Origin: a virus
Direction: 5' to 3' (one strand)
Length of the DNA: 64,000 nucleotides
IMG/VR virus record: IMGVR_UViG_3300025646_008465
Span: 1 to 64,000 of that record
The notes under the pieces are model-generated. The model ran no database searches. It was not told the origin of the DNA and worked only from the letters and a program-made list of their open reading frames with translations. Every line of letters begins with the position of its first letter. Position 1 is the first letter of the stretch. A program made the translations under genes and the position numbers. Positions 47,894 to 64,000 of this stretch are shown piece by piece.

Positions 47894-48012
47894 TTTGATT
47901 TAGGTTATGTTTTGTTATAAATATTATATTTTTTTTTAAAAGTCAATTTAAGCTAAAATTGTTTTTTTAACTAAATTGTATTTTTCCCTATAAATAAATA
48001 TTATAACTTTTA

Positions 48013-49209
48013 TCAAAAATGTAAAACTTTTTTTACAGAACTAATTACTTTTGCAGGAGTAATAGATTTAGTACATTCAAATTGGCGGGGTGTGTCTTTA
48101 TGATCAGGACACCATTCCCAATCACCAGGATTTAACCATTCACGATTAAAACATCCGCTGCAAAATCCTTTAGGGGCACCAATACGCTCACAGTCTTCAA
48201 ATTCAGTATGTTCTTCACTAAATCCTGAAATTAAAACAACAGGAGTTCCAATAGCCCATGCTAACCAAGATAAACCACTACCAACACCAATAAAAGCTTC
48301 GGCATGTTTAATTTGGTTCATTCTTACTTCAATAGGTTTATCACCGGTTTCATCAATTACATTTTGTAAAGTACCTCCTAATTTAGAATCGTGCCAATCA
48401 TCATTTAAGGGTTCATGTGTAATCATCATTACCTTATAACCCTCTTCATTCAATTCATCAATTACTTTTTGCCAACCACCGGGGTAATTCCAATACTTAG
48501 CGTGAGCTGAAGCATGAGGTGCAATTACAACATATTTTTCTTCAATAGGACGTCCTGTATCTTTAAAATTAACTCTGGGTTTGATTTCTTTATAGTTTAG
48601 TCCTAAAATATCAGTTGCGGTAGCTTGTAAAGGAATTGGTTTAAAATCACGAGGTACTCTATCTTTATTAAAGGTTCTATCATCATTATAAAACCAACCA
48701 ATTCCATACATTGCATATAAATCAAATACTTCTTTTCCGGGTTCTATAAATTCAAGTTCAGGATATAAATCTTGAAACCATTCATTTTTAAAAGTTGATA
48801 CTATAACATGGCAACCCCAAACTTTTTTAAATTCTTCAATATAAGGAAACCAAGCTAAAGTATCTCCAATAGCTGATGAATCTAGATGAATATAAACTCG
48901 TTTACCTTTAGCATCATAATTATGTTCAAATACTAATTCATTAGTTTCTTTATCATAAACTTTAATACCCCAATTTGTAAAATATTTACGATTAGTTCGA
49001 GTCCACATATTGTTTGTAATCACAGTATCATGGATAATTTCATTATTAGAATTATCTGTAATTATAACTCTATAATTTTTTTTCTGACTACCTGAAACTT
49101 CAACAAATGCTCCTTCAATAAAATTAATGTTAAAAGTATTACCTAAAGTTTTAATAGGCAATCTAAGGTTTACTAAGGTGTTGTATTCTTGTATTAATTC
49201 TTTTTTCAT
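48013..49209 (-). CDS. Aah/TibC-type protein O-heptosyltransferase-like enzyme (GT9-related)
   Basis: AIGDT.AWFPY, KYWN...GWQ, AEAFIGVGSGLSWLAWA.GTPVVLISGFS and the iron-finger pattern C..CFN...WCP.H....RQFEC.K.I. Confidence 0.82.
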   Translation of the reverse strand: MKKELIQEYNTLVNLRLPIKTLGNTFNINFIEGAFVEVSGSQKKNYRVIITDNSNNEIIHDTVITNNMWTRTNRKYFTNWGIKVYDKETNELVFEHNYDAKGKRVYIHLDSSAIGDTLAWFPYIEEFKKVWGCHVIVSTFKNEWFQDLYPELEFIEPGKEVFDLYAMYGIGWFYNDDRTFNKDRVPRDFKPIPLQATATDILGLNYKEIKPRVNFKDTGRPIEEKYVVIAPHASAHAKYWNYPGGWQKVIDELNEEGYKVMMITHEPLNDDWHDSKLGGTLQNVIDETGDKPIEVRMNQIKHAEAFIGVGSGLSWLAWAIGTPVVLISGFSEEHTEFEDCERIGAPKGFCSGCFNREWLNPGDWEWCPDHKDTPRQFECTKSITPAKVISSVKKVLHF

Positions 49210-50159
49210 AACACTTGATTATAAATGTTTATTAAATCTTTTGTTCTATTTTCCCAACTAAAATCTTTACCAGTTTGAATTGCTGATTTGGTGTAGTGAT
49301 CCCATTGGTTTAAAATATCATTTAAACCTTCTTCCATACGGAATATATTGCGAGGAGCTCTCCACATTCCAAAAAAATCAGTTTCCATTTCAATCCATCC
49401 TATAATAGGCAAACCACAAGCTGCTGCTTCTAATAATGTAAGGTTAGGATGACCCGCTTCTAATTCTGAAGGATGTAAGAAAATATCATGGTTCCAGTAA
49501 ATTTGTCTTAATTCTAAATTTGAGGGTTCCCAAATAAATTTAAGTTTGGGGTAATTTAAAACCCATAAATTTTCATTTATCCAATTTTCATTGTTTTTAG
49601 GACCTACAATTGTAATAGGCAAATTACGTTTCATAGCTAAACCTACACCATAAGCAAATCCTTTTCTATCATGTCCATTTTTACCACCCATACCATTATT
49701 AGCTAACATAAGTAGTTTTGGTTCAATAGGTCTAGGTTTAGATATAGTTTTAGGATAAAAATCATTAGTATTTACTCCATGTGGAAAATAAACACATTTA
49801 GGGTGTTTAAAATAATCTACTAACCATTTAGCAGGCATAAGTGAAATTAAAGAACCTTCAATAGCTTCTAAATTTTCTTTATAAACATGAGAATCTTCAC
49901 CATAATACATTACATGGTGATCATGTAATTGATAGATATAGGGTATGCCACGATGTTTAAGATCAATTGCTAAATTAGCTACATGACAATGGACAATATC
50001 AAACTCACCAAGGTTTATATACCCCCCAAGACGATGAGTAGATTCATGGCCTAATTTTCTTTGGTTTACTTCAAATTCCCAAATAATTTTTTCAATAGCC
50101 CCCCAGTTTTTAGGAGGAATATCTAAACCACAAGCGGGATCTACATGGCAAATTTTCAT
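49206..50159 (-). CDS. GT4 family glycosyltransferase
   Basis: PP..WGAIE, HGVN, RKG and HPS.LE...LTLLEAAACGLPII. Confidence 0.88.
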   Translation of the reverse strand: MKICHVDPACGLDIPPKNWGAIEKIIWEFEVNQRKLGHESTHRLGGYINLGEFDIVHCHVANLAIDLKHRGIPYIYQLHDHHVMYYGEDSHVYKENLEAIEGSLISLMPAKWLVDYFKHPKCVYFPHGVNTNDFYPKTISKPRPIEPKLLMLANNGMGGKNGHDRKGFAYGVGLAMKRNLPITIVGPKNNENWINENLWVLNYPKLKFIWEPSNLELRQIYWNHDIFLHPSELEAGHPNLTLLEAAACGLPIIGWIEMETDFFGMWRAPRNIFRMEEGLNDILNQWDHYTKSAIQTGKDFSWENRTKDLINIYNQVL

Positions 50160-50758
50160 AGGTTTTTATTTTTAGCGTAAATCATACCTAAGTTATAATC
50201 TTTATGAATATGTTCAAAATTAGTTGCAAAGTTATTTTTACTAAACATTTCTAAGATTTCAAATATTTTATAATAATTTTCATATATGTCATGAACTTCA
50301 ATAGCAAATTGATTTATTCGAGAAATTTCTTGGGGTGTAGCGTTTAATAATAAAGGATATTCCCAATATTCGATATCAATCTTACAAAAATCAACTTTAC
50401 TTAATTTAAACTGATTGAAAATAGTTGTAAAATTATAATGGTTTGGTTCTATTCTATCACTAACAAATCCTTTTATAGTTGTTACTTTAGGATTATTACA
50501 AAAATTTAAATCTAAACAATTATAATAATTTTCAGAACATTCAAAAGAATAAACATGATGTGCTCCTTTATTTAAGGCATATTTTGTAAAACTTCCAACA
50601 TTAGCTCCTAAATCTAAAACAATATCATAAGGACGAATTTGCAACCCATGACGATCGTATTCATGTTCTTCCCAAATTTCTTTTTTTACATTGATAAGCC
50701 AATTTTCATCCACATCTTGTGGAAAATAAAACCCTTCGATTACTTTAAAACTGTTCAT
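50156..50758 (-). CDS. FkbM family SAM-dependent methyltransferase
   Basis: VLDLGANVG, KIDIE..E and IEVH motifs. Confidence 0.85.
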   Translation of the reverse strand: MNSFKVIEGFYFPQDVDENWLINVKKEIWEEHEYDRHGLQIRPYDIVLDLGANVGSFTKYALNKGAHHVYSFECSENYYNCLDLNFCNNPKVTTIKGFVSDRIEPNHYNFTTIFNQFKLSKVDFCKIDIEYWEYPLLLNATPQEISRINQFAIEVHDIYENYYKIFEILEMFSKNNFATNFEHIHKDYNLGMIYAKNKNL

Positions 50759-53472
50759 TCTGCTGCGTAAATTTCAGGGCTATTTTCATCCATTCCTTTA
50801 AATTCTTGTTCAATAATACTAAATCCTGGGAGGTGTTTAGTATAAATTTTTTCGGCTGTGCCTACTTTAAGTTGAGCAACATTACAAACCCACATATCAA
50901 AAGCATCCCAAGGAGTATTTTTAACCATATATTGAAGATAACTAATTTTATCTTTATTAATTAAATATGATTGAGCTGGGATGAATGGTGTTACATTTGT
51001 ATAAATGTCTTCAACTTTAGGTCCATTTAAGTTACGGTTGTTAGATGGATTTCCAAATCCAATAATATCTTGGTCTTGTTCTCTTGCAATTCTAGAAAAA
51101 CGAATTAATGAATTATATAATTCTTGATAATCTGAATCAATAATAACATCACCTTCAAAAATCAAAACATAATCATAATCTTTATTATCTTCAGCTAAAA
51201 TAGCATTAGTATGAGCTAAATAACAACCATAATGACCCGGGGCTAATTTATAATAACCAGGAACATCTTGAACATCATCTGGGCGATTACAAGTATCTGT
51301 TGGTGGGATATCTTTATAAATTTCATTTATACGTTGTTCGTATTTAATACCGGTTTTCTCACAAAAGTCAAATACACTTTCTATTGAACGAATTTCTTTA
51401 GGATTAGAATTAGGTTCAGTAACTAGATGCATCAATTTAATTTTTGGTTTATTATTAAATTGAAGTTTATATTCAAATGTACCATTTTTTTCTAATTCAT
51501 TATTATAGTAGTTATTATCTACAATAACTTCTTTAGATTCAATAAATTCCTTAGTATCTAAATCATATAAATCCCACTTAACAATATAAGTACTTTCAAA
51601 ATCAAATTGAACTAAATCATAGGTATAGAATTTACTTTTAACCTCAAATTTAGCTTCATTAATAATAACACCATTTTTAATTAAAGTATAATTAATAAAA
51701 CGACTATCATTATTGTTTGAAATTTGAACAAATGGGGCAAAATGTCCTGGGATATTAGAGATAGGTAATACTGTAAAATATTCTACTCGCGAATAGTCTT
51801 GGTGAAAGAAGGTTTTAGTACATTCTTCTTGAAATTTATCTCTATCTTCCCAATGAACATTTGTACTATTTTTAAATCCATGATACATTAAGTTTTCTAA
51901 ACCATTAGATTCAGAACCCCACTCATGCATTAAAGCATCATACTGTTCGGCAGTATCAATTTTAGGTTTTTGTAAGAAAAATTCAGGACGAATACCTAAA
52001 AACCAAGTTGTAATTTGATCTCCTTCTGATGCTTGATCTTTACCAAAAAAAGCATCTTTATAGTTTAATACAGAACTAATTTTGTTTACATAAGATACAT
52101 CTTGTAAAATATAATCATAGTTAAGAAAATATACTTTTTTAATTCCTAACCCTTGTGCTAAAGCAGCACCATTATAATAATTTGTATAACAAGTAGGACC
52201 ATGATAAACATCATTATCTTCACCTCTTAAATTGATATGAGCATTACAATCATGTTGATTAGTCCACGAATTAGTATAAAATGTATGCTTTGTTAAAATG
52301 TTATGATTATCATTAATTGAATAATCTACAATATCATCTAATTCTTTAGGAATAGGAATATGCGAGGTTAAAATAACTTTACGACCTGTTGCTTTAATAG
52401 CTTGAATACACTCTTTAGTAGTATTAATAACTGCTTGGGTAACAGGGTATGTAGAAATAATAAATGCTTCTTCTTCAGGATTAACATCTAATGCTTTATA
52501 AACAATCTCATCATTTAAACCTAAAAGTGATTCAATAGTTTTAGCATTTTTTTCTTTATTGTTAAAATCAAGATAATTTACATTATCGAATTGATCCCAA
52601 TAATTCATATACACTGGGAGGTTGTAAATAAGTAGTTCCATGTTCCATGAAATAGATTCACGGATTACCAAAGGCATGGTTTCTTTATCTGTGTTTGTGC
52701 CTCGAGAGGTAAACAAAAATAAATCCATTGCCTTGTAAAAATTATCTACATCTTTACGTTCATTCCACCAAGTTACGTTTGGTGGAACATCTTTCATTAA
52801 AGGTTCCCAATACCATTTGAAGTTATCTGCCTGATTGCCTACACTATGAAATTGAATATCAGGGAGCATTCGAGCATATTCAAAAAATTCTGCTTGATTT
52901 TTACGAGGTGTAAATAAACCAACATGTAAAACATGTTTTTTATTTGGATCTAACCCTAAAGCACGTAATGCTTCTTCACGATTAGGACGTTCTTTATACT
53001 CGATAGGATAATAAACTACTTTTTTAGGGACATCAATATCTTTATATTGTTGTACTTGCCATTCTGAGACAAATAAGAATTTATCAGGGAAGAATGATTT
53101 TTTAGTAGTATCATATGATGAATCGTGGGATGTTTCTACAAGAAAATAAGGTCGATCTTGCCTGTATAGTGTTGACGCAATTTCATGGTCCATAAAATAT
53201 TCAGGAATTTCCTCTAAATGTATAATATCGGGTTTAATGCGATTAACAATGTTAAGAAATTCCGATTTATTTTCACCTAATACAAAAAAACGTTCAGCAG
53301 GAATCATATTCTGTAAACGTTCTCTTTGAACAATTAAAACTCCCCCTGTTAAATTATCCCATTCAACAAGATAGATTTCAAAATCATCTTTAATTAATTC
53401 AATTTTTTTAGTAAGATATTGTGGAAGTCCGCCTGTCGACAAATGGGGTGCAACACACAGTAATTTTTTCAT
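50755..53472 (-). CDS. Multi-domain glycosyltransferase (GT4, GT-A-like middle domain, GT25-like C-terminus)
   Basis: N-terminal HLSTGG.P...RKNQ...DLFLF.S...E..PLV..E; middle YFLNYD; C-terminal GHYGCYLAH...LIFEGD. Confidence 0.8.
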   Translation of the reverse strand: MKKLLCVAPHLSTGGLPQYLTKKIELIKDDFEIYLVEWDNLTGGVLIVQRERLQNMIPAERFFVLGENKSEFLNIVNRIKPDIIHLEEIPEYFMDHEIASTLYRQDRPYFLVETSHDSSYDTTKKSFFPDKFLFVSEWQVQQYKDIDVPKKVVYYPIEYKERPNREEALRALGLDPNKKHVLHVGLFTPRKNQAEFFEYARMLPDIQFHSVGNQADNFKWYWEPLMKDVPPNVTWWNERKDVDNFYKAMDLFLFTSRGTNTDKETMPLVIRESISWNMELLIYNLPVYMNYWDQFDNVNYLDFNNKEKNAKTIESLLGLNDEIVYKALDVNPEEEAFIISTYPVTQAVINTTKECIQAIKATGRKVILTSHIPIPKELDDIVDYSINDNHNILTKHTFYTNSWTNQHDCNAHINLRGEDNDVYHGPTCYTNYYNGAALAQGLGIKKVYFLNYDYILQDVSYVNKISSVLNYKDAFFGKDQASEGDQITTWFLGIRPEFFLQKPKIDTAEQYDALMHEWGSESNGLENLMYHGFKNSTNVHWEDRDKFQEECTKTFFHQDYSRVEYFTVLPISNIPGHFAPFVQISNNNDSRFINYTLIKNGVIINEAKFEVKSKFYTYDLVQFDFESTYIVKWDLYDLDTKEFIESKEVIVDNNYYNNELEKNGTFEYKLQFNNKPKIKLMHLVTEPNSNPKEIRSIESVFDFCEKTGIKYEQRINEIYKDIPPTDTCNRPDDVQDVPGYYKLAPGHYGCYLAHTNAILAEDNKDYDYVLIFEGDVIIDSDYQELYNSLIRFSRIAREQDQDIIGFGNPSNNRNLNGPKVEDIYTNVTPFIPAQSYLINKDKISYLQYMVKNTPWDAFDMWVCNVAQLKVGTAEKIYTKHLPGFSIIEQEFKGMDENSPEIYAAE

Positions 53473-53531
53473 AGACTATTTTTAAAATATAACAATAATA
53501 TAATAACTTATTTATAAATATCCAAGCTTTA

Positions 53532-56500
53532 TTATAAGTTCCAAGCAGGAACCCAATAATCAGTACCTCCGATATTAAACACTAACCAACCATATGCTGT
53601 TAAACCTGTATTATCAGGAACTTGTGCATCTCTAAACCCGTTAATTGAAGGGATATTTGAGGCTGGAGTTGGGGTTGCAGAAGCTCCACCACCACCACTA
53701 GTACCAGATGTACCAGCTTTACCTGAAGTACCTGCAGTACCTGTTTTACCTGAAGTTCCACTTGTGCCTGAAGAACCTATAAATGAAGTACCATTTGTTC
53801 CTGATGCTCCTGAAGTACCTGCTGTACCATTTGAACCAGATGTACTTGAACCACCTGAATTACCACCATTACCATTTGTACCGGAAGATCCAGCAGTTCC
53901 TGAAGTTGCACTTAATCCTGAGATACCGCTAGCTCCTGCGGCTCCAGTTGAGCCTGAAGTACCACTTGTACCTGCTGTACCACTTCCTCCTCCTTTACCT
54001 GAAGTTCCGGTTGAACCACTTGTACCTGAAAGACCTGAAGTGCCGTTTGTTCCTCCTTTACCACTTGTTCCTGAAGAACCTGAAGTAGCAGATTGACCTG
54101 AAAGACCATTAATACCTGAAGTACCTGTTGAGCCCGAAGTACCTGAAGTACCACTAGTTCCTGAGTTTCCTGAAGAACCTGATGTTCCGGATTTTCCTGA
54201 GGTGCCGTTTGCTCCATCTTTACCTGAAGTGCCACTTGAACCTGAAGTACCGCTTAGGCCTGAGGTGCCATTTGCTCCGTCTTTACCTGCAGTACCACTT
54301 GAACCTGAAGTACCGCTTAGGCCTGAGGTGCCGTTTGCTCCGTTTTTACCTGCGGTTCCACTTGAACCTGAAGTACCGCTTAGACCTGAAGTACCATCAG
54401 CTCCTACTTTACCGGAGGTTCCTGATGAACCAGAAGTTGCACTTAAAGCTGCTAAACCAGCAATACCACTTGTACCTGTAGAACCTGAAGTACCTGAGGT
54501 GCCTGAAGTGCCACTGCCTCCTCCTTTACCAGCAGTTCCAGTTGAACCGCTTGTACCTGAAAGACCTGAAGTGCCACTTGCTCCATCTTTACCGCTGGTA
54601 CCTGATGAACCACTAGTTCCTGAAGTGCCTGAAGTACCACTTCCTCCTCCTTTACCTGCGGTTCCACTTGAACCTGAGGTACCTGATAAACCTGAAGTAC
54701 CGTTTGCTCCATCTTTACCCGAAGTACCGCTAGAACCTGAGGTACCTGAAAGACCTGAAGTGCCGTTTGTGCCGGATGTACCTGCAGTTCCTGAAGTTGC
54801 ACTTAATCCTGAGATACCGCTAGCTCCTGCAGCTCCAGTTGAACCTGAAGTACCTGCAGTACCTGAAGTACCTGTTTTACCTGCGGTTCCTGTTGAACCA
54901 CTAGTTCCAGATAAACCTGAAGTACCATTTGTTCCTCCTTTACCTGAGGTGCCTGAAGAACCAGAAGTTGCACTTTGGCCTGATAATCCAGCTATGCCAC
55001 TAGTTCCAGTAGAACCTGCGGTACCTGAGGTTCCACTTGTTCCACTATTTCCTGAAGAACCTGATGTTCCTGATTTTCCTGAGGTACCATTTGTCCCATC
55101 TTTACCTGAAGTACCGCTAGAACCCGAGGTACCTGAAAGACCTGAAGTACCACTAGTTCCGTCTTTACCTGAGGTTCCAGTTGAACCGCTTGTACCTGAT
55201 AAACCTGAAGTACCATTTGTTCCTCCTTTACCTGCAGTTCCTGTTGAACCACTAGTTCCAGATAAACCTGAAGTACCATTAGCTCCATTTGAACCTGAAG
55301 AACCTGTAGTTCCTGATGTAGATGATTGACCTGATAAACCAGCAATACCTGAAGTACCTGTAGATCCAGCTGTGCCCGAAGTACCGCTTGTTCCACTATT
55401 TCCTGATGAACCTGATGTTCCTGATTTTCCTGAGGTACCGCTAGTTCCGTCTTTACCTGAGGTTCCGGCTGAACCTGAAGTGCCTGATAAACCTGAAGTA
55501 CCACTAGTTCCATCTTTACCGCTAGTACCAGTTGAACCACTTGTTCCTGAAAGACCTGAGGTGCCACTAGTTCCAGAATTTCCTGAAGAACCACTTGTAC
55601 CTGAAAGGCCTGAAGTACCGTTTGTTCCTCCTTTACCACTTGTTCCTGAAGAACCTGAAGTAGCTGATTGGCCTGATAGTCCTGCTATACCACTGGTTCC
55701 AGTAGAACCTGCGGTACCTGAAGTTCCTGAAGTACCGGATTGTCCTGTAGAACCTGAAGAGCCTGTAGTTCCTGAAGTGCCTGATTTGCCACTAGTTCCT
55801 CCAGCTCCATTTGAACCTGATGAACCTGTAGTTCCTGATGTAGAAGATTGACCTCCTAAACCTGCAATACCACTTGTACCTGTAGATCCAGCTGTGCCAC
55901 TAGTACCACTAGTTCCAGATTGTCCTGAAGAACCTGATGTACCTGCTTTACCACTAGTTCCATTAGCTCCGTTTGAACCTGAGGAACCAGTACTACCTGA
56001 AGTGCCACTTGTAGCACTTTGACCTGATAGTCCTGCTATACCACTAGTTCCAGTTGAACCTGCAGTGCCTGAAGTACCCGAAGTATTTCCTTGTCCTGAA
56101 GAGCCTACAGAACCTGAAGTACCTGATGTACCTGCTTTACCACTAGTTCCATTAGCTCCATTTGAACCTGAAGAACCTGTAGTTCCTGATGTAGATGATT
56201 GGCCTGATAATCCTGCAATACCACTTGTGCCTGTAGATCCAGCTGTACCTGAAGTACCTGAAGTACCAGATTGTCCTGAAGAACCTGATGTACCTGCTTT
56301 ACCACTAGTTCCATTAGCTCCATTTGAACCTGAGGATCCAGTAGAACCACTAGTTCCTGAAGTTCGTGATTGGCCTGAAAGACCATCGATACCTGAAGTA
56401 CCTGTTGAACCTGCTGTGCCTGAAGTGCCACTTGTTCCACTATTTCCTGAAGAACCTGAAGTACCTGATTTACCGCTTGTACCATTAGCCCCATTTGAAC

Positions 56501-57935: not shown

Positions 57936-58037
57936 TTAGATGGTTAAGTTTGTTATCTATGATAAATATTAAAAAAATATTAGATTATTGGAATTAAAGA
58001 AGGGGTTTTAGCCCCTCCAAATTTAAATATAAAAATA

Positions 58038-58397
58038 CTAACCTGGGGGAGGGTCTCCACATACATAAGGACCTGAAAGTTCAGTCCCATCCCAAAAGTA
58101 ATAAATTCCCTCGGGGTGGGCATAAAATCCAGGATCAGCTACCTCTGCACCACAACCCCCAGGTCTATATAAAATACCTAAATCATTACTAAAATCCCAA
58201 GGTTGGATATCTAATAACTCACATGCTATACCTGGGTCTCCAGGATCATATGAAAGAGTAAGTGGCTTACAACTTACAGAACTAGGCCATCCAGGTATGT
58301 TTGAGGTTGAAAATCCTGAAACTTTACTTAAAGAAGTAATTTCTTTTCCACCTACAAATTGTATACTATTTACATCAATATTAGATATTTTAGCCAT
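58038..58397 (-). CDS. Small fibre-associated protein
   Basis: 119 aa ORF with several Cys, between the two fibre genes. Confidence 0.6.
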   Translation of the reverse strand: MAKISNIDVNSIQFVGGKEITSLSKVSGFSTSNIPGWPSSVSCKPLTLSYDPGDPGIACELLDIQPWDFSNDLGILYRPGGCGAEVADPGFYAHPEGIYYFWDGTELSGPYVCGDPPPG

Positions 58398-58402
58398 AGT
58401 TT

Positions 58403-58738
58403 TTAACTAAAAAATGGTGGATTTAAAATCACAGTAGTTGGATTAGCTTTAGAAGTATTTTCAGCTGATAATTCTGATGTTAGGTATGATAAACCTGTTT
58501 CTCCTAAACTAGCAGTAATCCATCCTACAACTTGTTCTTTAGTTAAATCTTCAAATTCTGTAAAATTTGTAGGGTCTGGAGATGAAACTTGAACAAATAA
58601 TCTTTTACCTGAAGAATAAGGTTTTTCATTAATTATATCTGTTACTCTAAGTACATATTGGATTTTAAAAACTACATTGTTTAATCCATTTTCAGATATT
58701 TTACATTCTAAATTTTCTATATTCCAGTTTATTGTCAT
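58403..58738 (-). CDS. Small fibre-associated or assembly protein
   Basis: W.I..LE...GL.NVV..I.Y...F..F.DLT.EQV.GWI pattern, typical of short proteins that follow phage fibre genes. Confidence 0.65.
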   Translation of the reverse strand: MTINWNIENLECKISENGLNNVVFKIQYVLRVTDIINEKPYSSGKRLFVQVSSPDPTNFTEFEDLTKEQVVGWITASLGETGLSYLTSELSAENTSKANPTTVILNPPFFS

Positions 58739-58748
58739 AATCTATTTA

Positions 58749-61700
58749 TTATAAGGTTATCCAAGTTACATCTGGTTGGAACCATATACATTTTACTGCT
58801 GATGTATTATCAACTACCCATCCTACACCTCTAACTCTATCTCCTGTAGTAAATCCACTAGTATCGTCTGTTACTTGTCCATCAATATCACTTACCCATA
58901 AAGAATCACCTATATTAGTAGCACTAGTTACTTCCTCTGTAGTTATCATACCTTGAATAAATACATCAACTTCTTCATCAGCTCCACCTGTACCATTTAA
59001 TACAATTCCTAGTAACTTTTCAGCACTTACACCACCAGCATTTGCGGGTCTCCATCTACCTGTAGAGAAATTATACCACACTAATTGTCCTTTAGAAAGA
59101 GAGGTATCACTAACCGCTCCTGTTAATACATGACCTTGATAAAGGAAATCACCTATACCTTGTATATTACCCCATTGTTGATAAGTTGTATGTCCAGGGA
59201 ATGGAGCAGTATATGAAGAAACAATACTATTAATATCAGTATCACCTACTAAAAGGAAACCTTTGCTTTGGTCAAAATTAAAGTTAGGACTGCTAGTACT
59301 TCCTAAACCAGAACCTCTAATATCTCCTTCAACATAAAGTATTCTATTAGGTTTATCTATACTTAAGAATTCTGCACTTTGAGCTAAAGTACTAGAAGAA
59401 CCTGTAGAATATAATAGATGGTCTGGTGAATATGACCAAGTACCTCCACTAATACCACTAGTACCATTAAATGATACTCCTGAAGTTGCTGCGGTACCAT
59501 TTGTACCTGAAGTACCATTTTTACCTGAAGTACCACTTGTCCGTGTTAAACCGCTTGTACCGGCAGTACCACTTGTTCCTGAAGTGAATGAAGATGATCC
59601 ACTAGTACCGTTTGTACCATTTTTACCTGAAGTACCACTGGTTCCATTAGTTGCACTTTGTCCTGAGGTACCAGCTGTGCCGCTTGTTCCCGAAGTGAAT
59701 GAAGATGATCCACTAGTACCATTAGTACCATTCCGTCCTGAAGTACCTGAAGTGCCTGAAGTACCTGATTTGCCACTTGTTCCACTAGTACCTGAAGTAC
59801 CTGAGGTAAATGAAGATGATCCACTAGTACCGTTAGTACCATTCCGTCCTGAAGTACCTGCTGTACCACTTGTACCTGAAGTACCGGCTTTACCACTTGT
59901 TCCACTTGTACCTGAAGTACCTGAGGTAAATGAAGATAAACCGCTTGTACCATTAGTACCATTCCGTCCTGAAGTACCACTTGTACCGCTAGTTCCACTT
60001 AATCCTGAAGTACCTGAAGTGCCTGAAGTGCCTGAAGTAAATGAAGATAAACCACTTGTAGCGCTTGTACCATTTTTACCTGAAGTACCACTTGTACCGC
60101 TAGTTCCACTTAATCCTGAAGTACCTGAAGTACCGTTTGTTCCTGAAGTAAATGAAGATAAACCGCTTGTACCGTTTGTACCGTTCCGTCCTGAAGTGCC
60201 TGAAGTGCCTGAAGTGCCTGAAGTGCCTGAAACACCACTTGTACCTGAAGTACCAGTTGTACCTGAAGTAGTACTTAAACCTGATAAACCAGCAGCTCCA
60301 TCTAAACCTGCTGTACCTGAAGTACCTGATGATCCGGCTGTTCCTGAAGTCCGGCTTAACCCGCTTTGTCCGTGGGTTCCTGAAGCACCTGTAGTACCTG
60401 AAGTACCATTTGTACCTGAAGTCCGGCTAGCACCACTTTGTCCGTTAGTTCCTGAAGCACCTGTAGTACCACTTGTTCCTGTAGTACCACTTGTTCCTGA
60501 AGCTCCTGAAGTACGTGAAGCTCCATTTGCTCCGTTTGTACCTGAAGTACCTGTTGAACCGCTAGTGCTTGAAACTCCTGAAGTCCGTGAAGCACCGTTT
60601 GCTCCGTTTGTACCTGAAGTACCACTTGATCCTGAAGTTCCAGATACATTTGAAGCGCCACTATTTCCTGCAGTACCTGAAGCACCTGTAGTACCTGATG
60701 TGCCTGTTGTTCCTGAAGTCCGGCTTAAACCTGATCCTCCGGCATTACCATTAGCACCTGAAGTACCATTTGTACCTGAAGTACCTGAAGTACCTGAAGT
60801 CCGGCTTAAACCTGATCCCCCAGCATTACCACTAGTACCTGTATTTCCTGAAGTACCTGAGGTACCTGTTGTACCTGATGTACCTGATGTTCTACTTAAT
60901 CCTGAAGCTCCAGCATTACCACTAGTACCAGTAGCACCTGTAGTACCTGAAGTACCTGCTGTTCCTGAAGTCCGGCTTAAACCTGATTGACCTGCAACAC
61001 CTGCAGCTCCTGTTGTACCATTTGAACCATTAGTACCTGAAGTCTGGCTAATACCTGATTGACCCGCAACTCCTGCGGCTCCAGTAGTACCTGAAGAACC
61101 TTGAGTTCCTGAGGTTTGGCTTAAACCACTTTGTCCATTAGTTCCTGAAGCACCTGTAGTACCTGAAGTACCTGTTGTACCTGAAGTGCCACTAGCTCCT
61201 GAGGTTCTTGAAGCACCATTAGCTCCATTTGTACCTGATGTACCTGAGCTACCACTTGTACCTGAGGTCCGGCTTAAAGCTGAAGCTCCTGTAGTACCAT
61301 TTGCTCCTGAAGTACCTGAAGTACCTGAACTACCTGAAGTAGCACTTAATGCTGAAGCACCTACAGTTCCGGCATTACCACTTGTACCTGAGGTACCAGT
61401 TGTACCTGAGGTCCGGCTTAAACCACTTTGACCTGCAACTCCTGAAGCACCTGTAGTACCATTTGAACCATTAGTACCTGAAGTCTGGCTTAGACCTGAT
61501 TGACCTGCTGTTCCGTTTGCACCTGTAGTACCATTAGATCCTGTAGTTCCTGAAGTTCCACTAACACCACTTGTACGTGAAGCACCGTTTGCTCCGTTTG
61601 TACCTGAAGTACCTGAGCTACCGCTTGTACCTGAAGTTTGGCTGAGAGCAGAAGCACCTACAGTTCCATTATTTCCTGAAGTACCTGAAGTACCTGTTGT

Positions 61701-64000
61701 TCCTGAAGTTCCTGATACTCCTGAAGTCCGTGAAGCGCCATTTGCACCTACAGTACCATTTGTACCAGTTGAACCGCTTGTTCCTGAAGTTTTAGAAGCA
61801 CCTGAATCACCTGAAGCACCATCAACACCAGCTGTACCTGAGGTACCTGATGATCCGGCTGTTCCTGAAGTAGCACTTAATGCTGAAGCTCCTGTAGTAC
61901 CAGCAGCACCTGTAGTACCACTTGTACCAGTAGTTCCTGAGGTTTTACTTAAACCTGATTGGCCTGCGTTTCCAGCATTACCTGTAGTACCGCTTGAACC
62001 TTGAGTTCCTGAAGTTGCGCTTAAACCACTTTGACCTGCAGTTCCATTAGCACCTGTAGTACCGTTTGTACCAGTTGAACCTGAAGTTCCTGATACTCCT
62101 GAAGTCCGTGAAGCGCCATTGGCTCCGTTTGTACCACTTGTACCTGAAGAACCTGATGTTCCTGAAGTCCGGCTTAAAGCAGAAGCGCCTACAGTTCCAT
62201 TTGCTCCTGATGTACCTGAAGTTCCTGTTGAACCTGAAGTACCACTTAAAGCAGAAGCACCTACAGTTCCGGCATTACCACTTGTACCTGAGGTACCAGT
62301 TGTTCCCGAGGTTTTACTTAAACCTGATTGACCAGCATTACCTGCGTTTCCTGTAGTACCGCTTGAACCTTGAGTTCCTGAGGTAGCACTTAAACCTGAT
62401 TGACCTGCTGTTCCGTTTGCTCCAGTTGTACCATTTGTACCTGCTGAGCCACTTGTACCTGAAGTGCTACTAGCACCTGAAGTTCTTGAAGCGCCGTTTG
62501 CACCTGAAGTACCTGAAGTACCTGTTGAACCTGAAGTACCACTCAATGCAGAAGCACCTACTGTTCCATTATTACCACTTGTACCAGAAGTACCAGTAGA
62601 ACCACTAGTTCCACTTAATGCAGAAGCACCTACTGTACCTGCATTTCCTGAAGTACCTGAAGTACCTGTTGTTCCTGAAGTCCGGCTTAAACCTGATTGG
62701 CCTGCGTTTCCAGCATTACCCGTAGTACCTGAAGAACCTTGAGTTCCTGAGGTAGCACTTAAACCTGAATTTCCAGCTGTTCCATTAGCACCTGTAGTAC
62801 CTGCTGAACCTGTAGTTCCTGAGGTTCCTGATACTCCTGAAGTCCGTGAAGCGCCATTTGCACCTGAAGTACCTGAAGTACCTGTACTACCTGATGTACC
62901 ACTTAACGCAGAAGCACCGTTTGTACCCGTATTACCTGATGTACCGCTTGTTCCTGTAGAACCGCTCGTACCTGATTGGCCTGATGTTCTAGACGCACCA
63001 CTAGCGCCTACAGTACCTGAAGTACCTGATGAACCGCTAGTACCTGATGTTGCACTATCTGCAGATTGACCTGTAGTTCCATTGTTACCAGATGTACCTG
63101 AAGTACCTGTGGTACCTGAAGTCCGGCTTAGACCTGATTGGCCTGCTACACCATTTGCACCTGTAGTACCGTTTGAACCGTTAGTACCTGAAGTAGTACT
63201 TAAACCACTTTTTCCGGCAGTTCCATTTACACCTGTAGTACCTGAAGATCCTGTAGTACCGCTTGTACCACTTTCAGCTGATAATCCAGAAGTACCATTA
63301 GCACCTGTAGTGCCATTTGTACCAGTTGAACCTGAAGTTCCTGAAACACCTGAAGTTCTTGAAGCACCATTAGCTCCAACTGTACCATTTGTACCGGTTG
63401 AACCACTAGTACCTGAAGTTGCACTTAAGTTAGATTGGCCTGCTACTCCAGCTGAACCTGTAGTACCTGAAGTACCGGCTGTTCCTGAAGTAGAGCTTAA
63501 ATTAGATTGACCTGCTATTCCAGCTGAACCTGTAGTACCTGAAGTACCAGCTGTTCCTGAAGTTTGGCTTAAACCACTTTGACCTGCGGTTCCATTAGCA
63601 CCTGTTGTACCTGCTGAACCTGTAGTACCTGAAGTTGAGGATACACCACTAGTACCTGCAATACCATTCTTTCCAGAAGTACCGTTTGTGCCAGTTGAAC
63701 CTGAAGTTCCTGAAACACCACTTGTGCGTGAAGCTCCATCAGCACCTACTGTACCTGAGGTACCTGATGAACCACTTGTTCCTGAAGTTGCACTATTATT
63801 TGATAAACCAGCTGTACCTGCATTACCACTTGTACCTGAAGAACCTGTAGTACCACTTGTAGTACTTAAACCTGATTTACCAGCAGTACCATTTGCACCC
63901 GTAGTACCAGATGAACCTGTAGTACCTGAAGTACCACTTAATGCTGAAGCACCTACAGTTCCATTTTCTCCTGAAGTACCTGAGGTTCCTGTTGAACCTG
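58749..64000 (-). CDS. Gly-Ser-Thr-rich collagen-like fibre protein 2 (at least 1749 aa; 5' end outside the window)
   Basis: Reading the frame from 62546 to 64000 by hand shows no stop, so the ORF-track start at 62546 is an internal TTG. A globular C-terminal region of about 230 aa follows the repeats. Confidence 0.88.
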   Translation of the reverse strand, partial: GSTGTSGTSGENGTVGASALSGTSGTTGSSGTTGANGTAGKSGLSTTSGTTGSSGTSGNAGTAGLSNNSATSGTSGSSGTSGTVGADGASRTSGVSGTSGSTGTNGTSGKNGIAGTSGVSSTSGTTGSAGTTGANGTAGQSGLSQTSGTAGTSGTTGSAGIAGQSNLSSTSGTAGTSGTTGSAGVAGQSNLSATSGTSGSTGTNGTVGANGASRTSGVSGTSGSTGTNGTTGANGTSGLSAESGTSGTTGSSGTTGVNGTAGKSGLSTTSGTNGSNGTTGANGVAGQSGLSRTSGTTGTSGTSGNNGTTGQSADSATSGTSGSSGTSGTVGASGASRTSGQSGTSGSTGTSGTSGNTGTNGASALSGTSGSTGTSGTSGANGASRTSGVSGTSGTTGSAGTTGANGTAGNSGLSATSGTQGSSGTTGNAGNAGQSGLSRTSGTTGTSGTSGNAGTVGASALSGTSGSTGTSGTSGNNGTVGASALSGTSGSTGTSGTSGANGASRTSGASSTSGTSGSAGTNGTTGANGTAGQSGLSATSGTQGSSGTTGNAGNAGQSGLSKTSGTTGTSGTSGNAGTVGASALSGTSGSTGTSGTSGANGTVGASALSRTSGTSGSSGTSGTNGANGASRTSGVSGTSGSTGTNGTTGANGTAGQSGLSATSGTQGSSGTTGNAGNAGQSGLSKTSGTTGTSGTTGAAGTTGASALSATSGTAGSSGTSGTAGVDGASGDSGASKTSGTSGSTGTNGTVGANGASRTSGVSGTSGTTGTSGTSGNNGTVGASALSQTSGTSGSSGTSGTNGANGASRTSGVSGTSGTTGSNGTTGANGTAGQSGLSQTSGTNGSNGTTGASGVAGQSGLSRTSGTTGTSGTSGNAGTVGASALSATSGSSGTSGTSGANGTTGASALSRTSGTSGSSGTSGTNGANGASRTSGASGTSGTTGTSGTTGASGTNGQSGLSQTSGTQGSSGTTGAAGVAGQSGISQTSGTNGSNGTTGAAGVAGQSGLSRTSGTAGTSGTTGATGTSGNAGASGLSRTSGTSGTTGTSGTSGNTGTSGNAGGSGLSRTSGTSGTSGTNGTSGANGNAGGSGLSRTSGTTGTSGTTGASGTAGNSGASNVSGTSGSSGTSGTNGANGASRTSGVSSTSGSTGTSGTNGANGASRTSGASGTSGTTGTSGTTGASGTNGQSGASRTSGTNGTSGTTGASGTHGQSGLSRTSGTAGSSGTSGTAGLDGAAGLSGLSTTSGTTGTSGTSGVSGTSGTSGTSGTSGRNGTNGTSGLSSFTSGTNGTSGTSGLSGTSGTSGTSGKNGTSATSGLSSFTSGTSGTSGTSGLSGTSGTSGTSGRNGTNGTSGLSSFTSGTSGTSGTSGKAGTSGTSGTAGTSGRNGTNGTSGSSSFTSGTSGTSGTSGKSGTSGTSGTSGRNGTNGTSGSSSFTSGTSGTAGTSGQSATNGTSGTSGKNGTNGTSGSSSFTSGTSGTAGTSGLTRTSGTSGKNGTSGTNGTAATSGVSFNGTSGISGGTWSYSPDHLLYSTGSSSTLAQSAEFLSIDKPNRILYVEGDIRGSGLGSTSSPNFNFDQSKGFLLVGDTDINSIVSSYTAPFPGHTTYQQWGNIQGIGDFLYQGHVLTGAVSDTSLSKGQLVWYNFSTGRWRPANAGGVSAEKLLGIVLNGTGGADEEVDVFIQGMITTEEVTSATNIGDSLWVSDIDGQVTDDTSGFTTGDRVRGVGWVVDNTSAVKCIWFQPDVTWITL
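59440..64000. repeat. 9-bp-period coding repeat with higher-order blocks
   Basis: Directly visible; recurring GLSRTS, GASALS and SSFTSG blocks. Confidence 0.9.

What the first reader, a model, noticed from the sequence alone, without database searches (positions are those of the whole stretch)
48013..64000. Candidate phage-encoded O-glycosylation system: Aah/TibC-type transferase operon beside giant Gly-Ser-Thr fibres
Seen: two co-oriented fibre genes (1467 aa and at least 1749 aa) made almost wholly of Gly-X-X triplets, with roughly half the residues Ser or Thr (estimated by eye). They are followed at once by four overlapping genes (three-module GT, FkbM methyltransferase, GT4, Aah/TibC-like transferase) and then the tail sheath. 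Established: Aah and TibC add heptose to many Ser residues in repetitive autotransporter passenger domains, and FkbM enzymes often O-methylate sugars. Inference: the Aah-like enzyme primes the fibre Ser/Thr residues, the other GTs extend the glycan and FkbM caps it. This would give mucin-like glycosylated fibres that could stabilise the Pro-free repeat, shield the virion or mediate adhesion.
Basis: partly seen in the sequence, partly recalled or inferred. Interest (0 to 1): 0.88.

Follow-up and report, generated by a model that had tools for sequence, protein, structure and literature searches.

The report
Phage sugar-coating kit for giant fibres
An uncultured aquatic phage encodes two enormous proline-free collagen-like fibres made of Gly-Thr-Ser triplets. 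Next to them sits a conserved set of sugar-adding enzymes whose key member belongs to a previously unrecognised branch of a bacterial protein-glycosylating family, and across phages and bacteria that branch travels with such Gly-Thr-Ser proteins.

Summary
FibA is 1467 aa. FibB runs off the window and is 3709 aa in the full record. Both keep a strict Gly-X-Y register (X mostly Thr, Y mostly Ser, almost no Pro).

Downstream lie a 905-aa three-module transferase (GT4, an unknown module, a GT25-like module), an FkbM methyltransferase, a GT4 and a TibC/Aah-family enzyme. The tail sheath and tube follow.

The TibC-like protein passes NCBI's equivalog model. It keeps the catalytic Asp, the donor-contact residues and the four iron-finger Cys. 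It lacks the hydrophobic beta-hairpin "thumb" that classical members need to form dodecamers.

- 20 of 73 viral contigs chosen only for a (GTS)5 pattern carry this enzyme, against 0 of 79 random contigs.
- In bacterial genomes, thumb-less homologues sit beside secreted (GTS)n proteins in 17 of 30 loci, against 0 of 50 for classical homologues.
- The cassette has the same promoter-like motif as fibA, sheath and tube.

Best reading (about 0.65): late-expressed O-glycosylation of the fibres, probably heptose on Ser. No glycan, donor or virion location has been shown.

The scan's first-stage readers had already noted this stretch on the same DNA in another window. I found no paper that describes it.

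The parts
58749..64000 (-). FibB. The window holds the C-terminal 1749 aa of a 3709-aa Pro-free Gly-X-Y fibre (the gene runs to position 69878 of the record). It ends in a non-repetitive domain of about 250 aa whose last 130 or so residues form a beta domain.
   Evidence: composition, register; the C-terminal beta domain (pLDDT 60-90) matches the C-termini of phage tail-fibre-like and collagen-repeat proteins in BFVD, E 1e-6 to 1e-4.
58403..58738 (-). 111-aa DUF7936 protein between the two fibres. Function unknown.
   Evidence: PF25590, 67.1 bits; phrog_7802. A homologue lies near a TibC-like gene in L370.
58038..58397 (-). 119-aa ORF with no family match.
57999..58018 (-). Terminator-like hairpin just upstream of fibA.
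53532..57935 (-). FibA, a 1467-aa Pro-free Gly-X-Y fibre. It has a non-repeat N-terminus of about 55 aa and a C-terminal tail of about 50 aa. The same RATATTTAT-type motif lies upstream of its start.
   Evidence: The N-terminal domain is conserved in related loci. The C-terminal tail is shared with a Gly-Pro-Gln version of the fibre in L061.
53509..53522 (-). Promoter-like motif (RATATTTATA on the coding strand) 41-48 nt upstream of the 905-aa transferase start.
   Evidence: 10 matches in the window, all in the coding orientation, 1.75 expected, 0 of 100 shuffles reach 10.
50755..53472 (-). 905-aa three-module transferase. Residues 1-321 form a GT4 (GT-B) domain. Residues 335-670 form a confidently folded module with no family match. 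Residues 673-900 form a GT25-like GT-A module.
   Evidence: VIA Z 22 to HepE/WaaG/BshA for residues 1-321; all 15 homologues hit PF01755 and nothing else; the window's copy scores 23.9 bits against a cut-off of 24. Foldseek hits to human COLGALT1 and LH3, with aligned ranges unresolved.
50156..50758 (-). FkbM-family SAM methyltransferase, 200 aa. It overlaps its neighbours by 4 nt.
   Evidence: PF05050, 44.2 bits; TIGR01444, 52.3 bits against 37.7. Present in only some relatives, in varying positions or fused.
49206..50159 (-). GT4 glycosyltransferase, 317 aa. It is the constant partner directly upstream of the TibC-like gene.
   Evidence: It is conserved next to, or fused with, TibC-like genes in distant phages.
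48013..49209 (-). TibC/Aah-family (BAHT) protein O-glycosyltransferase, 398 aa, of the thumb-less branch.
47916..47925 (-). The same promoter-like motif, 23-30 nt upstream of the sheath start.
46187..47893 (-). Tail sheath. It is the conserved downstream neighbour of the cassette.
45648..46136 (-). Tail tube, followed by a terminator-like hairpin at 45627-45596.

Best explanation
The four-gene cassette is a phage-encoded protein O-glycosylation system. It is expressed with the late virion genes, and its substrates are the two giant (Gly-Thr-Ser)n fibres.

Proposed mechanism (all steps inferred):
- The TibC/Aah-family enzyme transfers a sugar directly onto Ser residues, which fill the Y position just before each Gly. 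The sugar is most likely heptose from host ADP-heptose.
- The GT4 enzymes and, where present, the GT25-like module either extend this sugar or prime other hydroxyl residues.
- FkbM methylates the glycan in the lineages that carry it.

The result would be densely glycosylated, trimeric, collagen-like filaments attached in the neck or tail region. At the collagen rise of about 0.29 nm per residue they would be roughly 0.4 and 1 micrometre long.

Shown here: the gene content, the family membership, the conserved catalytic residues, the shared promoter-like motif, and the statistical and phyletic association between this enzyme branch and GTS-repeat proteins.

Inferred only: the sugar, the acceptor residue, the order of steps, the triple helix, the place on the virion and the biological role.
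For: Enzyme identity:
- TIGR04414 scores 333.7 bits against a cut-off of 200.
- Against TibC structure 4rap, E is 7e-56 over residues 43-394.
- Asp110, Lys230, Arg286, Trp305 and Cys339/342/358/370 are all conserved, and Thr226 is Ser. The residue roles come from PMC4358343.

Conserved layout:
- The order transferase, GT4, TibC, sheath, tube holds in all 80 related viral loci.
- A GTS fibre lies upstream wherever the contig reaches far enough. The apparent exceptions proved to carry GTS open frames of 4335, 4499 and at least 2409 aa.

Reverse test: 20 of 73 contigs with the (GTS)5 pattern carry the enzyme, against 0 of 79 random contigs, p 9e-8. The enzyme lies within 15 kb of the pattern in 14 of the 21 matching contigs (coordinates).

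Domain fusions: GT4-methyltransferase-TibC in Mel-JY01, GT4-TibC in megaphage LR756501 and in many contigs.

Phyletic pattern: phage immuto lacks both parts, and Mel-JY01 has both side by side.

Bacteria: thumb-less homologues sit next to secreted proteins or lipoproteins with (GTS)n tracts in 17 of 30 loci, against 0 of 50 for classical homologues, p 1e-9. The thumb-less set forms one clade with support 0.885.

Co-regulation: one promoter-like motif precedes fibA, the cassette, the sheath, the tube and the tape measure gene. No terminator-like hairpin separates fibA, the cassette and the sheath.

Acceptor candidates: the two fibres are the only ORFs in the 76-kb record with a stretch of 40 residues that is at least 50% Ser+Thr.

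Donor supply: RfaE domain II passes its cut-off in 25 of 61 genomes sampled from the order of the MAG (labelled Flavobacteriales) that holds a contig of this phage clade.
Against: - There is no biochemical or proteomic evidence of any kind.
- Classical TibC and Aah act on folded beta-helix passenger domains as a dodecamer. The thumb that builds the dodecamer is replaced here, so activity and acceptor could differ.
- The phage record encodes no heptose pathway. GmhA was absent from 24 of 25 phage records that carry the enzyme.
- The adenine-contact Arg286 is replaced in about half of the phage homologues, so the donor may vary.
- Seven of 16 GTS-pattern contigs rated at least 50% complete, including two rated 98-100%, have no TibC homologue.
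- Megaphage LR756504 has a TibC-like gene and no GTS protein.
- Related sequences are not independent samples, so the p-values overstate the evidence.
- The record is only about 47% complete, so other substrates may be encoded elsewhere.
Confidence: 0.65

Rival explanations
1. The cassette glycosylates other virion proteins, such as the sheath, capsid or decoration proteins. On this reading the fibres are merely neighbours in the structural module.
For: - The cassette is always directly upstream of the sheath.
- The known case of phage virion glycosylation targets capsid and tail-tube subunits (Freeman et al. 2023, as summarised in PMC12619734).
- In 7 of the 21 TibC-positive GTS contigs the two features lie more than 15 kb apart.
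Against: - No other ORF in the record has a Ser/Thr-rich tract.
- In bacteria, where there is no sheath or capsid, the same enzyme branch sits beside (GTS)n proteins.
- In Mel-JY01 the cassette is about 24 kb from the sheath but next to the fibre.
Confidence: 0.1
2. The enzymes remodel the host envelope (LPS core or a surface polysaccharide) during infection, for example to block superinfection or aid release. The TibC-like protein would then act like an LPS heptosyltransferase.
For: - Pfam places the catalytic domain in GT9, the family of LPS heptosyltransferases.
- GT4, GT25 and FkbM are typical of polysaccharide and LPS gene clusters.
- Seroconverting phage transferases are well known (PMC12619734).
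Against: - The protein scores 333.7 bits on the protein-glycosylating equivalog model but only 15-40 bits on the WaaC, WaaF and WaaQ models.
- It keeps the iron finger that marks the protein-modifying family.
- The window holds no flippase, polymerase or lipid-carrier priming enzyme next to the cassette.
- The cassette carries the same promoter-like motif as the virion genes.
- The link with GTS proteins would be left unexplained.
Confidence: 0.08
3. The transferases glycosylate phage DNA bases, as the T-even phage enzymes do, to evade restriction.
For: The GT4 domain has the GT-B fold also seen in T4 alpha-glucosyltransferase (VIA Z 19.7 against a top score of 22.1). DNA glycosylation by phage transferases is common (PMC12619734).
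Against: - The fold match is generic to GT-B enzymes.
- The TibC family is a protein O-transferase (PMC4358343).
- Earlier first-stage reader notes of this scan, which I did not check, report a 7-deazaguanine DNA-modification pathway elsewhere in the window.
- The bacterial homologues next to secreted GTS proteins have no link to phage DNA.
Confidence: 0.02
4. The cassette does glycosylate the fibres, but the fibres are not collagen-type triple helices. They would be extended, mucin-like disordered brushes or another Gly-rich fold, and the sugars would serve as a hydrated coat rather than a helix stabiliser.
For: - Pro is almost absent (7 and 8 residues), and no Pro-free collagen of this kind has been characterised.
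- Pfam Collagen hits on the tested C-terminal segments are below the cut-off.
- The bacterial partners are short (GTS)n tracts in lipoproteins, which look like linkers.
Against: - The triplet register is kept for more than 1000 residues, and breaks are almost always multiples of three. Selection for low complexity alone does not explain this.
- In one relative the same fibre family carries a classical Gly-Pro-Gln collagen repeat in place of GTS (L061).
- There is a C-terminal beta domain like those on other phage fibres.
Confidence: 0.25

Closest known systems
Bacterial autotransporter heptosyltransferases TibC and Aah (BAHT family; TIGR04414; PDB 4rap and 4rb4; PMC4358343)
   Same: - Homologous along the full length (E 7e-56).
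- Same catalytic Asp and same contacts to the beta-phosphate and to the heptose.
- Same four-Cys iron finger.
- The gene lies beside a gene for a long, repetitive, Ser-rich surface protein that offers many acceptor sites.
   Different: - The hydrophobic beta-hairpin thumb that builds the dodecamer is replaced or deleted.
- The neighbour is a Gly-X-Y fibre or a (GTS)n protein, not an AIDA-type beta-helix autotransporter.
- The enzyme is encoded by a lytic-type myovirus inside its virion gene module.
- It is accompanied by, or fused to, GT4 partners.
- It falls in a separate clade from the E. coli, Burkholderia, Pandoraea and Acetobacter enzymes.
Mycobacteriophage virion glycosylation (Freeman et al. 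2023, Cell Host Microbe; known here only through its summary in PMC12619734)
   Same: Phage-encoded transferases are thought to put O-glycans on virion proteins.
   Different: There the acceptors are the C-termini of the capsid and tail-tube subunits. Here they would be separate giant fibres with more than a thousand candidate sites each. I could not read the paper itself, so which transferase families it involves was not checked.
BclA, the glycosylated collagen-like filament of the Bacillus anthracis exosporium (PMC6222408, PMC10050317)
   Same: - A collagen-like Gly-X-Y filament with a hydroxy amino acid in the repeat and a C-terminal globular domain.
- It carries O-linked oligosaccharides that end in a methylated sugar (anthrose is 2-O-methylated). 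This parallels the FkbM gene here.
   Different: - BclA repeats are Gly-Pro-Thr, and the glycan is rhamnose-based.
- That Thr is the residue carrying the sugar in BclA is from my own knowledge.
- BclA is far shorter. Here the repeats are Pro-free, the Y position is Ser, and the priming enzyme is of the TibC family.
Mimivirus collagen-like proteins and L230 (PMC9614988), and animal collagen galactosyltransferase COLGALT1 (GT25; PDB 9evj)
   Same: A virus encodes both collagen-like proteins and an enzyme that glycosylates them. The C-terminal module of the 905-aa protein is GT25-like, and Foldseek matches the whole model to COLGALT1 and LH3.
   Different: L230 and COLGALT1 act on hydroxylysine. 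These fibres have few Lys, and no hydroxylase was seen. The GT25 score is borderline, and many relatives lack the module.
Thr-galactosylated cuticle collagen of the vent worm Riftia (from my own knowledge; none of the returned papers was opened)
   Same: A collagen with little Pro or Hyp in which a sugar on the Y-position hydroxy residue stabilises the triple helix.
   Different: It is an animal protein with Gly-Pro-Thr(Gal) type triplets, not Pro-free. I cite it only as a precedent for the physical idea.

Membership tests
BAHT (TibC/Aah autotransporter O-heptosyltransferases, TIGR04414) | Scores above the curated equivalog cut-off along the whole length | tested here: met
   333.7 bits against a cut-off of 200, covering residues 27-395 on profile positions 13-374 of 374. 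PDB TibC: E 7e-56.
BAHT (TibC/Aah autotransporter O-heptosyltransferases, TIGR04414) | Catalytic base Asp110 and donor contacts Thr226, Lys230, Arg286 and Trp305 | tested here: met
   The window enzyme has D, S, K, R and W at these columns. Across 34 phage homologues: D 34/34, K 33/34, W 34/34, T or S 34/34, but R in only 15/34 (residue roles from PMC4358343).
BAHT (TibC/Aah autotransporter O-heptosyltransferases, TIGR04414) | Four-Cys iron finger (Cys339, 342, 358, 370) | tested here: met
   All four Cys are invariant in 34 of 34 phage homologues, including the window's.
BAHT (TibC/Aah autotransporter O-heptosyltransferases, TIGR04414) | Beta-hairpin thumb with two hydrophobic tip residues (Phe265-Val266). 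It is required for the dodecamer and is described as highly conserved in the family. | tested here: not met
   In the window clade the region is replaced by a different, longer loop. Depending on the alignment, the tip columns read D-D or H-D. The thumb is deleted in 19 of 34 phage homologues.
BAHT (TibC/Aah autotransporter O-heptosyltransferases, TIGR04414) | Adjacent AIDA-type autotransporter substrate gene | tested here: not met
   The annotated stretch around the cassette holds no autotransporter or AIDA repeat. The neighbours are Gly-X-Y fibres. For comparison, the E. coli plasmid homologue sits next to an AIDA repeat protein.
BAHT (TibC/Aah autotransporter O-heptosyltransferases, TIGR04414) | Transfers heptose from ADP-heptose to Ser of a protein | not testable with these tools
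   Only residue conservation bears on this. No heptose pathway lies on the phage record. RfaE domain II is common in the likely host order.
Collagen-like triple-helix proteins | Gly at every third residue over long uninterrupted stretches | tested here: met
   The register is kept over about 1290 aa in fibA and about 1650 plus 1500 aa in fibB. Breaks are almost all 3 or 6 aa long.
Collagen-like triple-helix proteins | Pro (or Hyp), or charged pairs, in X and Y to stabilise the helix | tested here: not met
   7 and 8 Pro in 1467 and 3709 aa. X is Thr in 45% and Y is Ser in 54-64% of triplets.
Collagen-like triple-helix proteins | Pfam Collagen (PF01391) above the gathering score | tested here: inconclusive
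   Only the C-terminal segments were scanned. They scored 24.7 and 17.3 bits against a cut-off of 27.2. The full repeats were not scanned.
Phage virion O-glycosylation (mycobacteriophage type) | Transferase genes inside the virion structural module, and glycans found on virion proteins | tested here: inconclusive
   Gene position is met. Glycans on virions cannot be tested with these tools.
GT25 (LPS galactosyltransferases and collagen galactosyltransferases) | PF01755 above the gathering score | tested here: inconclusive
   The window module scores 23.9 bits against a cut-off of 24. All 15 homologous modules hit PF01755 and nothing else (best E 7.5e-6). Foldseek matches the whole model to COLGALT1 at E 3e-9, with aligned ranges unresolved. 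A profile search of PDB found nothing.
FkbM methyltransferases | TIGR01444 and PF05050 above their cut-offs | tested here: met
   52.3 bits against 37.7, and 44.2 bits against 22.7.
GT4 glycosyltransferases (GT-B fold) | PF00534 above its cut-off, and a GT-B fold | tested here: met
   41.5 bits (905-aa protein) and 31.8 bits (317-aa protein) against a cut-off of 26.4. The model of residues 1-321 gives VIA Z 22.1, rmsd 3.4 A over 297 residues, to HepE.

The most novel reading that the evidence does not exclude
A distinct, thumb-less branch of the TibC/Aah family has (Gly-Thr-Ser)n repeats as its dedicated acceptor in both phages and bacteria. Dense sugar on the Y-position Ser is what allows a proline-free collagen-type helix to form filaments up to about a micrometre long on virions. 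That would be a new class of glyco-collagen and a widespread, unrecognised form of phage virion glycosylation in aquatic viruses, including megaphages.
Probability: 0.35. Interest if true: 0.88.

Novelty: new variant of a known kind. Interest (0 to 1): 0.76.

Why it matters
- Protein glycosylation of phage particles is known from very few systems. Here it would be widespread: at least 230 related viral contigs, a cultured Microcystis phage and 735-kb megaphages.
- It would give the TibC/Aah family a second substrate class, with a structural marker (loss of the thumb) that predicts which substrate a homologue serves.
- It would offer a testable answer to how a collagen-like helix can exist without proline.
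- Micrometre-long sugar-coated filaments could shape how aquatic phages find hosts, stick to particles or mucus, and resist proteases.
- The bacterial (GTS)n lipoproteins next to the same enzyme point to an unnoticed class of glycosylated surface proteins in methanotrophs and other Proteobacteria.

Tried and rejected
- Megablast of the cassette against cultured phages found nothing.
- tblastn with a 500-aa fibre segment against the phage collection found nothing, because the low-complexity filter removes the query. I used the genome search and a degenerate DNA pattern instead.
- I looked for the T4 late-promoter consensus TATAAATA. The recurrent intergenic element is its reverse complement extended, RATATTTATA on the coding strand, so it is not the T4 motif as such.
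- Loci L026, L057, L058 and L061 looked like exceptions, with Pro/Gln-type collagen upstream of the cassette. Their contigs also carry giant GTS open frames further upstream.
- Profile searches of modules 2 and 3 of the 905-aa protein against PDB sequences gave only chance-level hits. Module 2 has no Pfam family.
- The VIA second look was filled by the N-terminal GT4 domain, so the COLGALT1 match could not be assigned to a region.
- The fibB C-terminal model is poor overall (pLDDT 54). Only the last beta domain is usable.
- No paper on Mel-JY01 is held in the library. Freeman et al. 2023 is not held either.
- A 'hydrophobic tip' classifier for the thumb did not separate the loci cleanly. Thumb-region length did.
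- GmhA is not encoded by the phage, so a phage-borne heptose pathway is rejected for this record.

Full report
WHAT IS THERE

The window is bases 1-64000 of a 76,264-bp IMG/VR virus record. The record is classed as linear and is about 47% complete by CheckV. All genes lie on the minus strand.

In the direction of transcription the region reads as follows:
- PhoH
- a head-tail adaptor-like protein
- a gp15-like sheath stabiliser
- fibB
- a DUF7936 protein (111 aa)
- a 119-aa ORF
- fibA
- a 905-aa transferase
- an FkbM methyltransferase
- a GT4 transferase
- a TibC/Aah-type transferase
- tail sheath, tail tube and baseplate hub

The closest cultured phage by tail-sheath identity is Flavobacterium phage immuto (53%). 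Microcystis phage Mel-JY01 comes next (48%).

THE FIBRES

FibA is 1467 aa. FibB is cut by the window end. In the full record it is 3709 aa. Gly makes up 27-31%, Ser 25-28% and Thr 18-20%. There are 7 and 8 Pro.

The sequences are strictly triplet-periodic. The Gly phase is constant over about 1290 residues in fibA and over two blocks of about 1650 and 1500 residues in fibB. Of 27 breaks in fibA, 24 are exactly three residues long. In fibB 82 breaks are three residues and 39 are six. In a typical break Gly is replaced by Arg, Ala, Asn, Ser, Lys or Gln, followed by Thr-Ser. X is Thr in 45% of triplets and Y is Ser in 54-64%. Ser-Gly dipeptides number 276 in fibA and 540 in fibB.

A register kept this well argues for a rod-like Gly-X-Y structure rather than plain low complexity.

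- In relative L061 the fibA family carries a classical Gly-Pro-Gln repeat with the same C-terminal tail.
- FibB ends in a non-repeat domain. Its last 130 or so residues are modelled as a beta domain (pLDDT 60-90). This domain matches the C-termini of phage tail-fibre-like and collagen-repeat proteins (E 1e-6 to 1e-4, rmsd 2.4-4 A over about 130 residues).
- If the fibres are collagen-type helices, the rise of about 0.29 nm per residue gives lengths of about 0.4 and 1 micrometre. This is inference.
- These two proteins are the only ORFs in the record with a 40-residue stretch that is at least half Ser+Thr.

THE ENZYMES

The 398-aa protein is a genuine TibC/Aah-family member.
- It scores 333.7 bits on the NCBIfam equivalog model TIGR04414 (cut-off 200). 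It scores only 15-40 bits on the LPS heptosyltransferase models.
- It aligns with the TibC crystal structure sequence at E 7e-56.

I took the residue roles from the TibC structure paper (PMC4358343) and aligned the protein with an E. coli plasmid homologue that shares TibC numbering.
- The catalytic Asp110 is conserved.
- The donor contacts Lys230, Arg286 (adenine) and Trp305 (heptose O4) are conserved. Thr226 is Ser.
- The four iron-finger Cys are conserved.
- The beta-hairpin thumb is not conserved. That paper shows its Phe-Val tip is needed for the dodecamer and calls it highly conserved in the family. In the window's clade a different loop replaces it. It is deleted in 19 of 34 phage homologues.

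The 905-aa protein was modelled with mean pLDDT 78.5.
- Residues 1-321 form a GT4 GT-B domain (VIA Z 22.1, rmsd 3.4 A, 297 residues aligned to HepE). The Ser-repeat protein transferases SdgB and GtfA score Z of about 19, which does not stand out from the other matches.
- Residues 335-670 fold confidently but match no family.
- Residues 673-900 are GT25-like. All 15 homologous modules hit PF01755 and nothing else. The window's copy scores 23.9 bits against a cut-off of 24.
- Foldseek matches the whole model to human collagen galactosyltransferase COLGALT1 and to LH3 (E 3e-9 and 6e-8). I could not assign the aligned region.

The GT25-like module and FkbM are missing from many relatives. The constant core is therefore the GT4-bearing large protein, the small GT4 and the TibC-like enzyme.

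CO-REGULATION

The four genes overlap by 4 nt at each junction. No terminator-like hairpin separates fibA, the cassette and the sheath. Hairpins lie before fibA and after the tube gene.

A motif, RATATTTATA on the coding strand, lies 23-48 nt upstream of the start codons of the 905-aa gene, the sheath, the tube, the tape measure gene and a 103-aa gene. A one-base variant precedes fibA. The window has 10 exact matches, all in the coding orientation. The expectation is 1.75, and none of 100 shuffles reaches 10. The cassette therefore looks co-regulated with virion genes. That this means late expression is inference.

THE CO-OCCURRENCE TESTS

(a) Within the clade. 230 viral stretches encode close relatives of the enzyme. 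In all 80 that were kept, the order transferase, GT4, TibC, sheath, tube holds. A Gly-X-Y ORF lies upstream wherever enough sequence exists, and many contigs break inside it. Four loci seemed to have only Pro/Gln-type collagen. The three distinct contigs behind them hold GTS open frames of 4335, 4499 and at least 2409 aa further upstream.

(b) Cultured and megaphage genomes.
- Immuto has neither the enzyme nor any GTS protein.
- Mel-JY01 has an unannotated GTS fibre frame running over the start of the record. It is followed by a 'structural protein' and then a 1226-aa GT4-methyltransferase-TibC fusion.
- The 735-kb phage LR756501 has a GT4-TibC fusion next to a Gly-X-Y, Ser/Thr-rich protein. 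It also has several GTS open frames of 1665-3488 aa elsewhere.
- LR756504 has a TibC-like gene but no GTS protein.

(c) Reverse test. I picked viral contigs only by a degenerate DNA pattern for (GTS)5 and searched the whole contigs with TIGR04414.
- 21 of 73 match, and 20 of these are over the cut-off. Among the 16 contigs at least 50% complete, 9 match.
- Of 79 contigs picked by an arbitrary 14-mer, none passes the cut-off. Fisher p is 9e-8.
- The matching enzymes are 31-60% identical to the window's. Nearly all have a GT4 directly upstream or fused, in frames of 360-1462 aa.
- The enzyme lies within 15 kb of the pattern in 14 of the 21 (my arithmetic).

(d) Cellular genomes. A scan of one genome per species returned 80 loci.
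- The best is a contig of this phage clade binned in a Flavobacteriales MAG.
- In Methylococcales, other Gammaproteobacteria, a Burkholderiaceae MAG and a Pseudobdellovibrionaceae MAG, the homologue sits directly beside small proteins that carry signal peptides or lipoboxes and pure (GTS)n tracts.
- Sorting the 80 loci by thumb-region length gives a sharp split. Of 50 with the classical 18-residue thumb, none has a GTS tract within 6 kb. Of 30 with a shortened or altered thumb, 17 do (p 1e-9).
- In a FastTree phylogeny of 116 sequences, the non-classical enzymes, including all the phage ones, form a clade of 65 (support 0.885). It is sister to the 51 classical enzymes from E. coli, Acetobacter, Burkholderia and Pandoraea.

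Related sequences are not independent, so the p-values are upper bounds on the strength of the evidence. The pattern does recur across very different architectures, hosts and genome types.

THE DONOR

The window enzyme keeps all the ADP-heptose contacts, so heptose is the default inference.
- The phage encodes no GmhA. Of 25 phage records with the enzyme, only LR756504 does.
- The Flavobacteriales MAG that holds the related contig has a near-cut-off GmhA and an RfaE domain II above its cut-off. RfaE domain II passes the cut-off in 25 of 61 genomes sampled from that order. A host supply is therefore plausible.
- In about half of the phage homologues Arg286 is replaced, so other lineages may use other nucleotide sugars.

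MOST LIKELY MECHANISM

The cassette is made along with the virion proteins and O-glycosylates the fibres in the cytoplasm. The TibC-like enzyme acts on Ser, as classical TibC modifies Ser and not Thr and can work on peptides (PMC4358343). The GT4 and GT25-like modules extend the sugar or prime other sites, and FkbM methylates the glycan where it is present.

Loss of the thumb suggests a different oligomer, suited to a thin rod or an unfolded chain rather than a beta-helix. I put confidence at about 0.65 that the fibres are the substrates, and lower for each detail. The rivals are weaker, for the reasons given in their entries: other virion targets, host envelope remodelling and DNA glycosylation. 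Whether the fibres are true triple helices is a separate open question.

COMPARISON AND NOVELTY

The system works like TibC/Aah with their autotransporters. It resembles the glycosylated collagen-like BclA filament, whose glycan ends in a 2-O-methyl sugar (PMC6222408). It also resembles Mimivirus collagen-like proteins with L230 (PMC9614988) and, at the level of idea, mycobacteriophage virion glycosylation (cited in PMC12619734).

It is a sequence member of the TibC/Aah family, but it fails two of that family's defining features: the thumb and the autotransporter partner. Full-text searches found no paper linking this family to phages or to collagen-like proteins. I rate it a new variant of a known kind.

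Earlier first-stage reader notes of this scan on the same DNA reached a similar reading. My tests were run independently of it.

Noticed in passing
L002:2-3049 (+) and L087:37687-39999 (+), Microcystis phage Mel-JY01 PP395634.1: A (GTS)n collagen-like fibre frame of at least 1016 aa runs across the start of the deposited record and is not annotated. The record instead annotates ORFs on the opposite strand over the same DNA (1-651 and 739-2298), which are probably spurious. An unannotated 771-aa frame at the record's end may be the fibre's N-terminal part.
   Followed up: partly
L368:11172-12065, L376:8507-8950 and 11232-11852, L362:7240-8229, L372:8889-9851, L364:11229-11594, L380:11986-13587: Bacterial genomes and MAGs (Methylococcales, other Gammaproteobacteria, Burkholderiaceae, Pseudobdellovibrionaceae) encode small secreted proteins or lipoproteins with pure (GTS)n or (GTT)n tracts directly beside a thumb-less TibC-like gene. 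This looks like an undescribed class of candidate glycoproteins.
   Followed up: partly
L358 (LR756504.1 430182-430640): The 636-kb phage LR756504 encodes a GmhA above the curated cut-off (251.5 bits), about 27 kb from its TibC-like gene. It has no GTS protein. Its heptosyltransferase may serve another substrate, using a phage-made donor.
   Followed up: no
window 51457-52479 (residues 335-670 of the 905-aa protein): This module folds confidently (pLDDT mostly above 85) as an alpha/beta part followed by a beta-sandwich. It is conserved in all relatives, including the short 660-aa forms. It matches no Pfam family and no PDB sequence profile.
   Followed up: partly
G155 (contig of L026) about 6.8-20 kb; G153 (contig of L057) about 52.7-65 kb: Relatives carry even larger GTS open frames, of 4499 and 4335 aa. 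Some also carry a second fibre type with Gly-Tyr-Gln or Gly-Pro-Gln repeats and an inserted globular domain.
   Followed up: partly
window 7337, 20668, 25660, 25960, 29090, 40566, 44459, 46163, 47916, 53513: The ten-base motif TATAAATATY on the plus strand (RATATTTATA on the coding strand) occurs 10 times, always in the coding orientation, and mostly 23-48 nt upstream of virion gene starts. It is a candidate late promoter element for this phage group.
   Followed up: partly
L360:7929-12427 (Acetobacter oryzoeni plasmid NZ_CP042810.1): A classical, thumb-bearing TibC-family gene sits next to large 'Hint domain-containing' proteins rather than an annotated autotransporter. The family may have further substrate classes.
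   Followed up: no
L003:15306-16960 (record 73305-74959, beyond the window): A soluble phosphatidylserine-decarboxylase-like gene and a conserved unknown gene (phrog_12759) lie upstream of PhoH in the structural region. An earlier first-stage reader note of this scan also flagged them.
   Followed up: no
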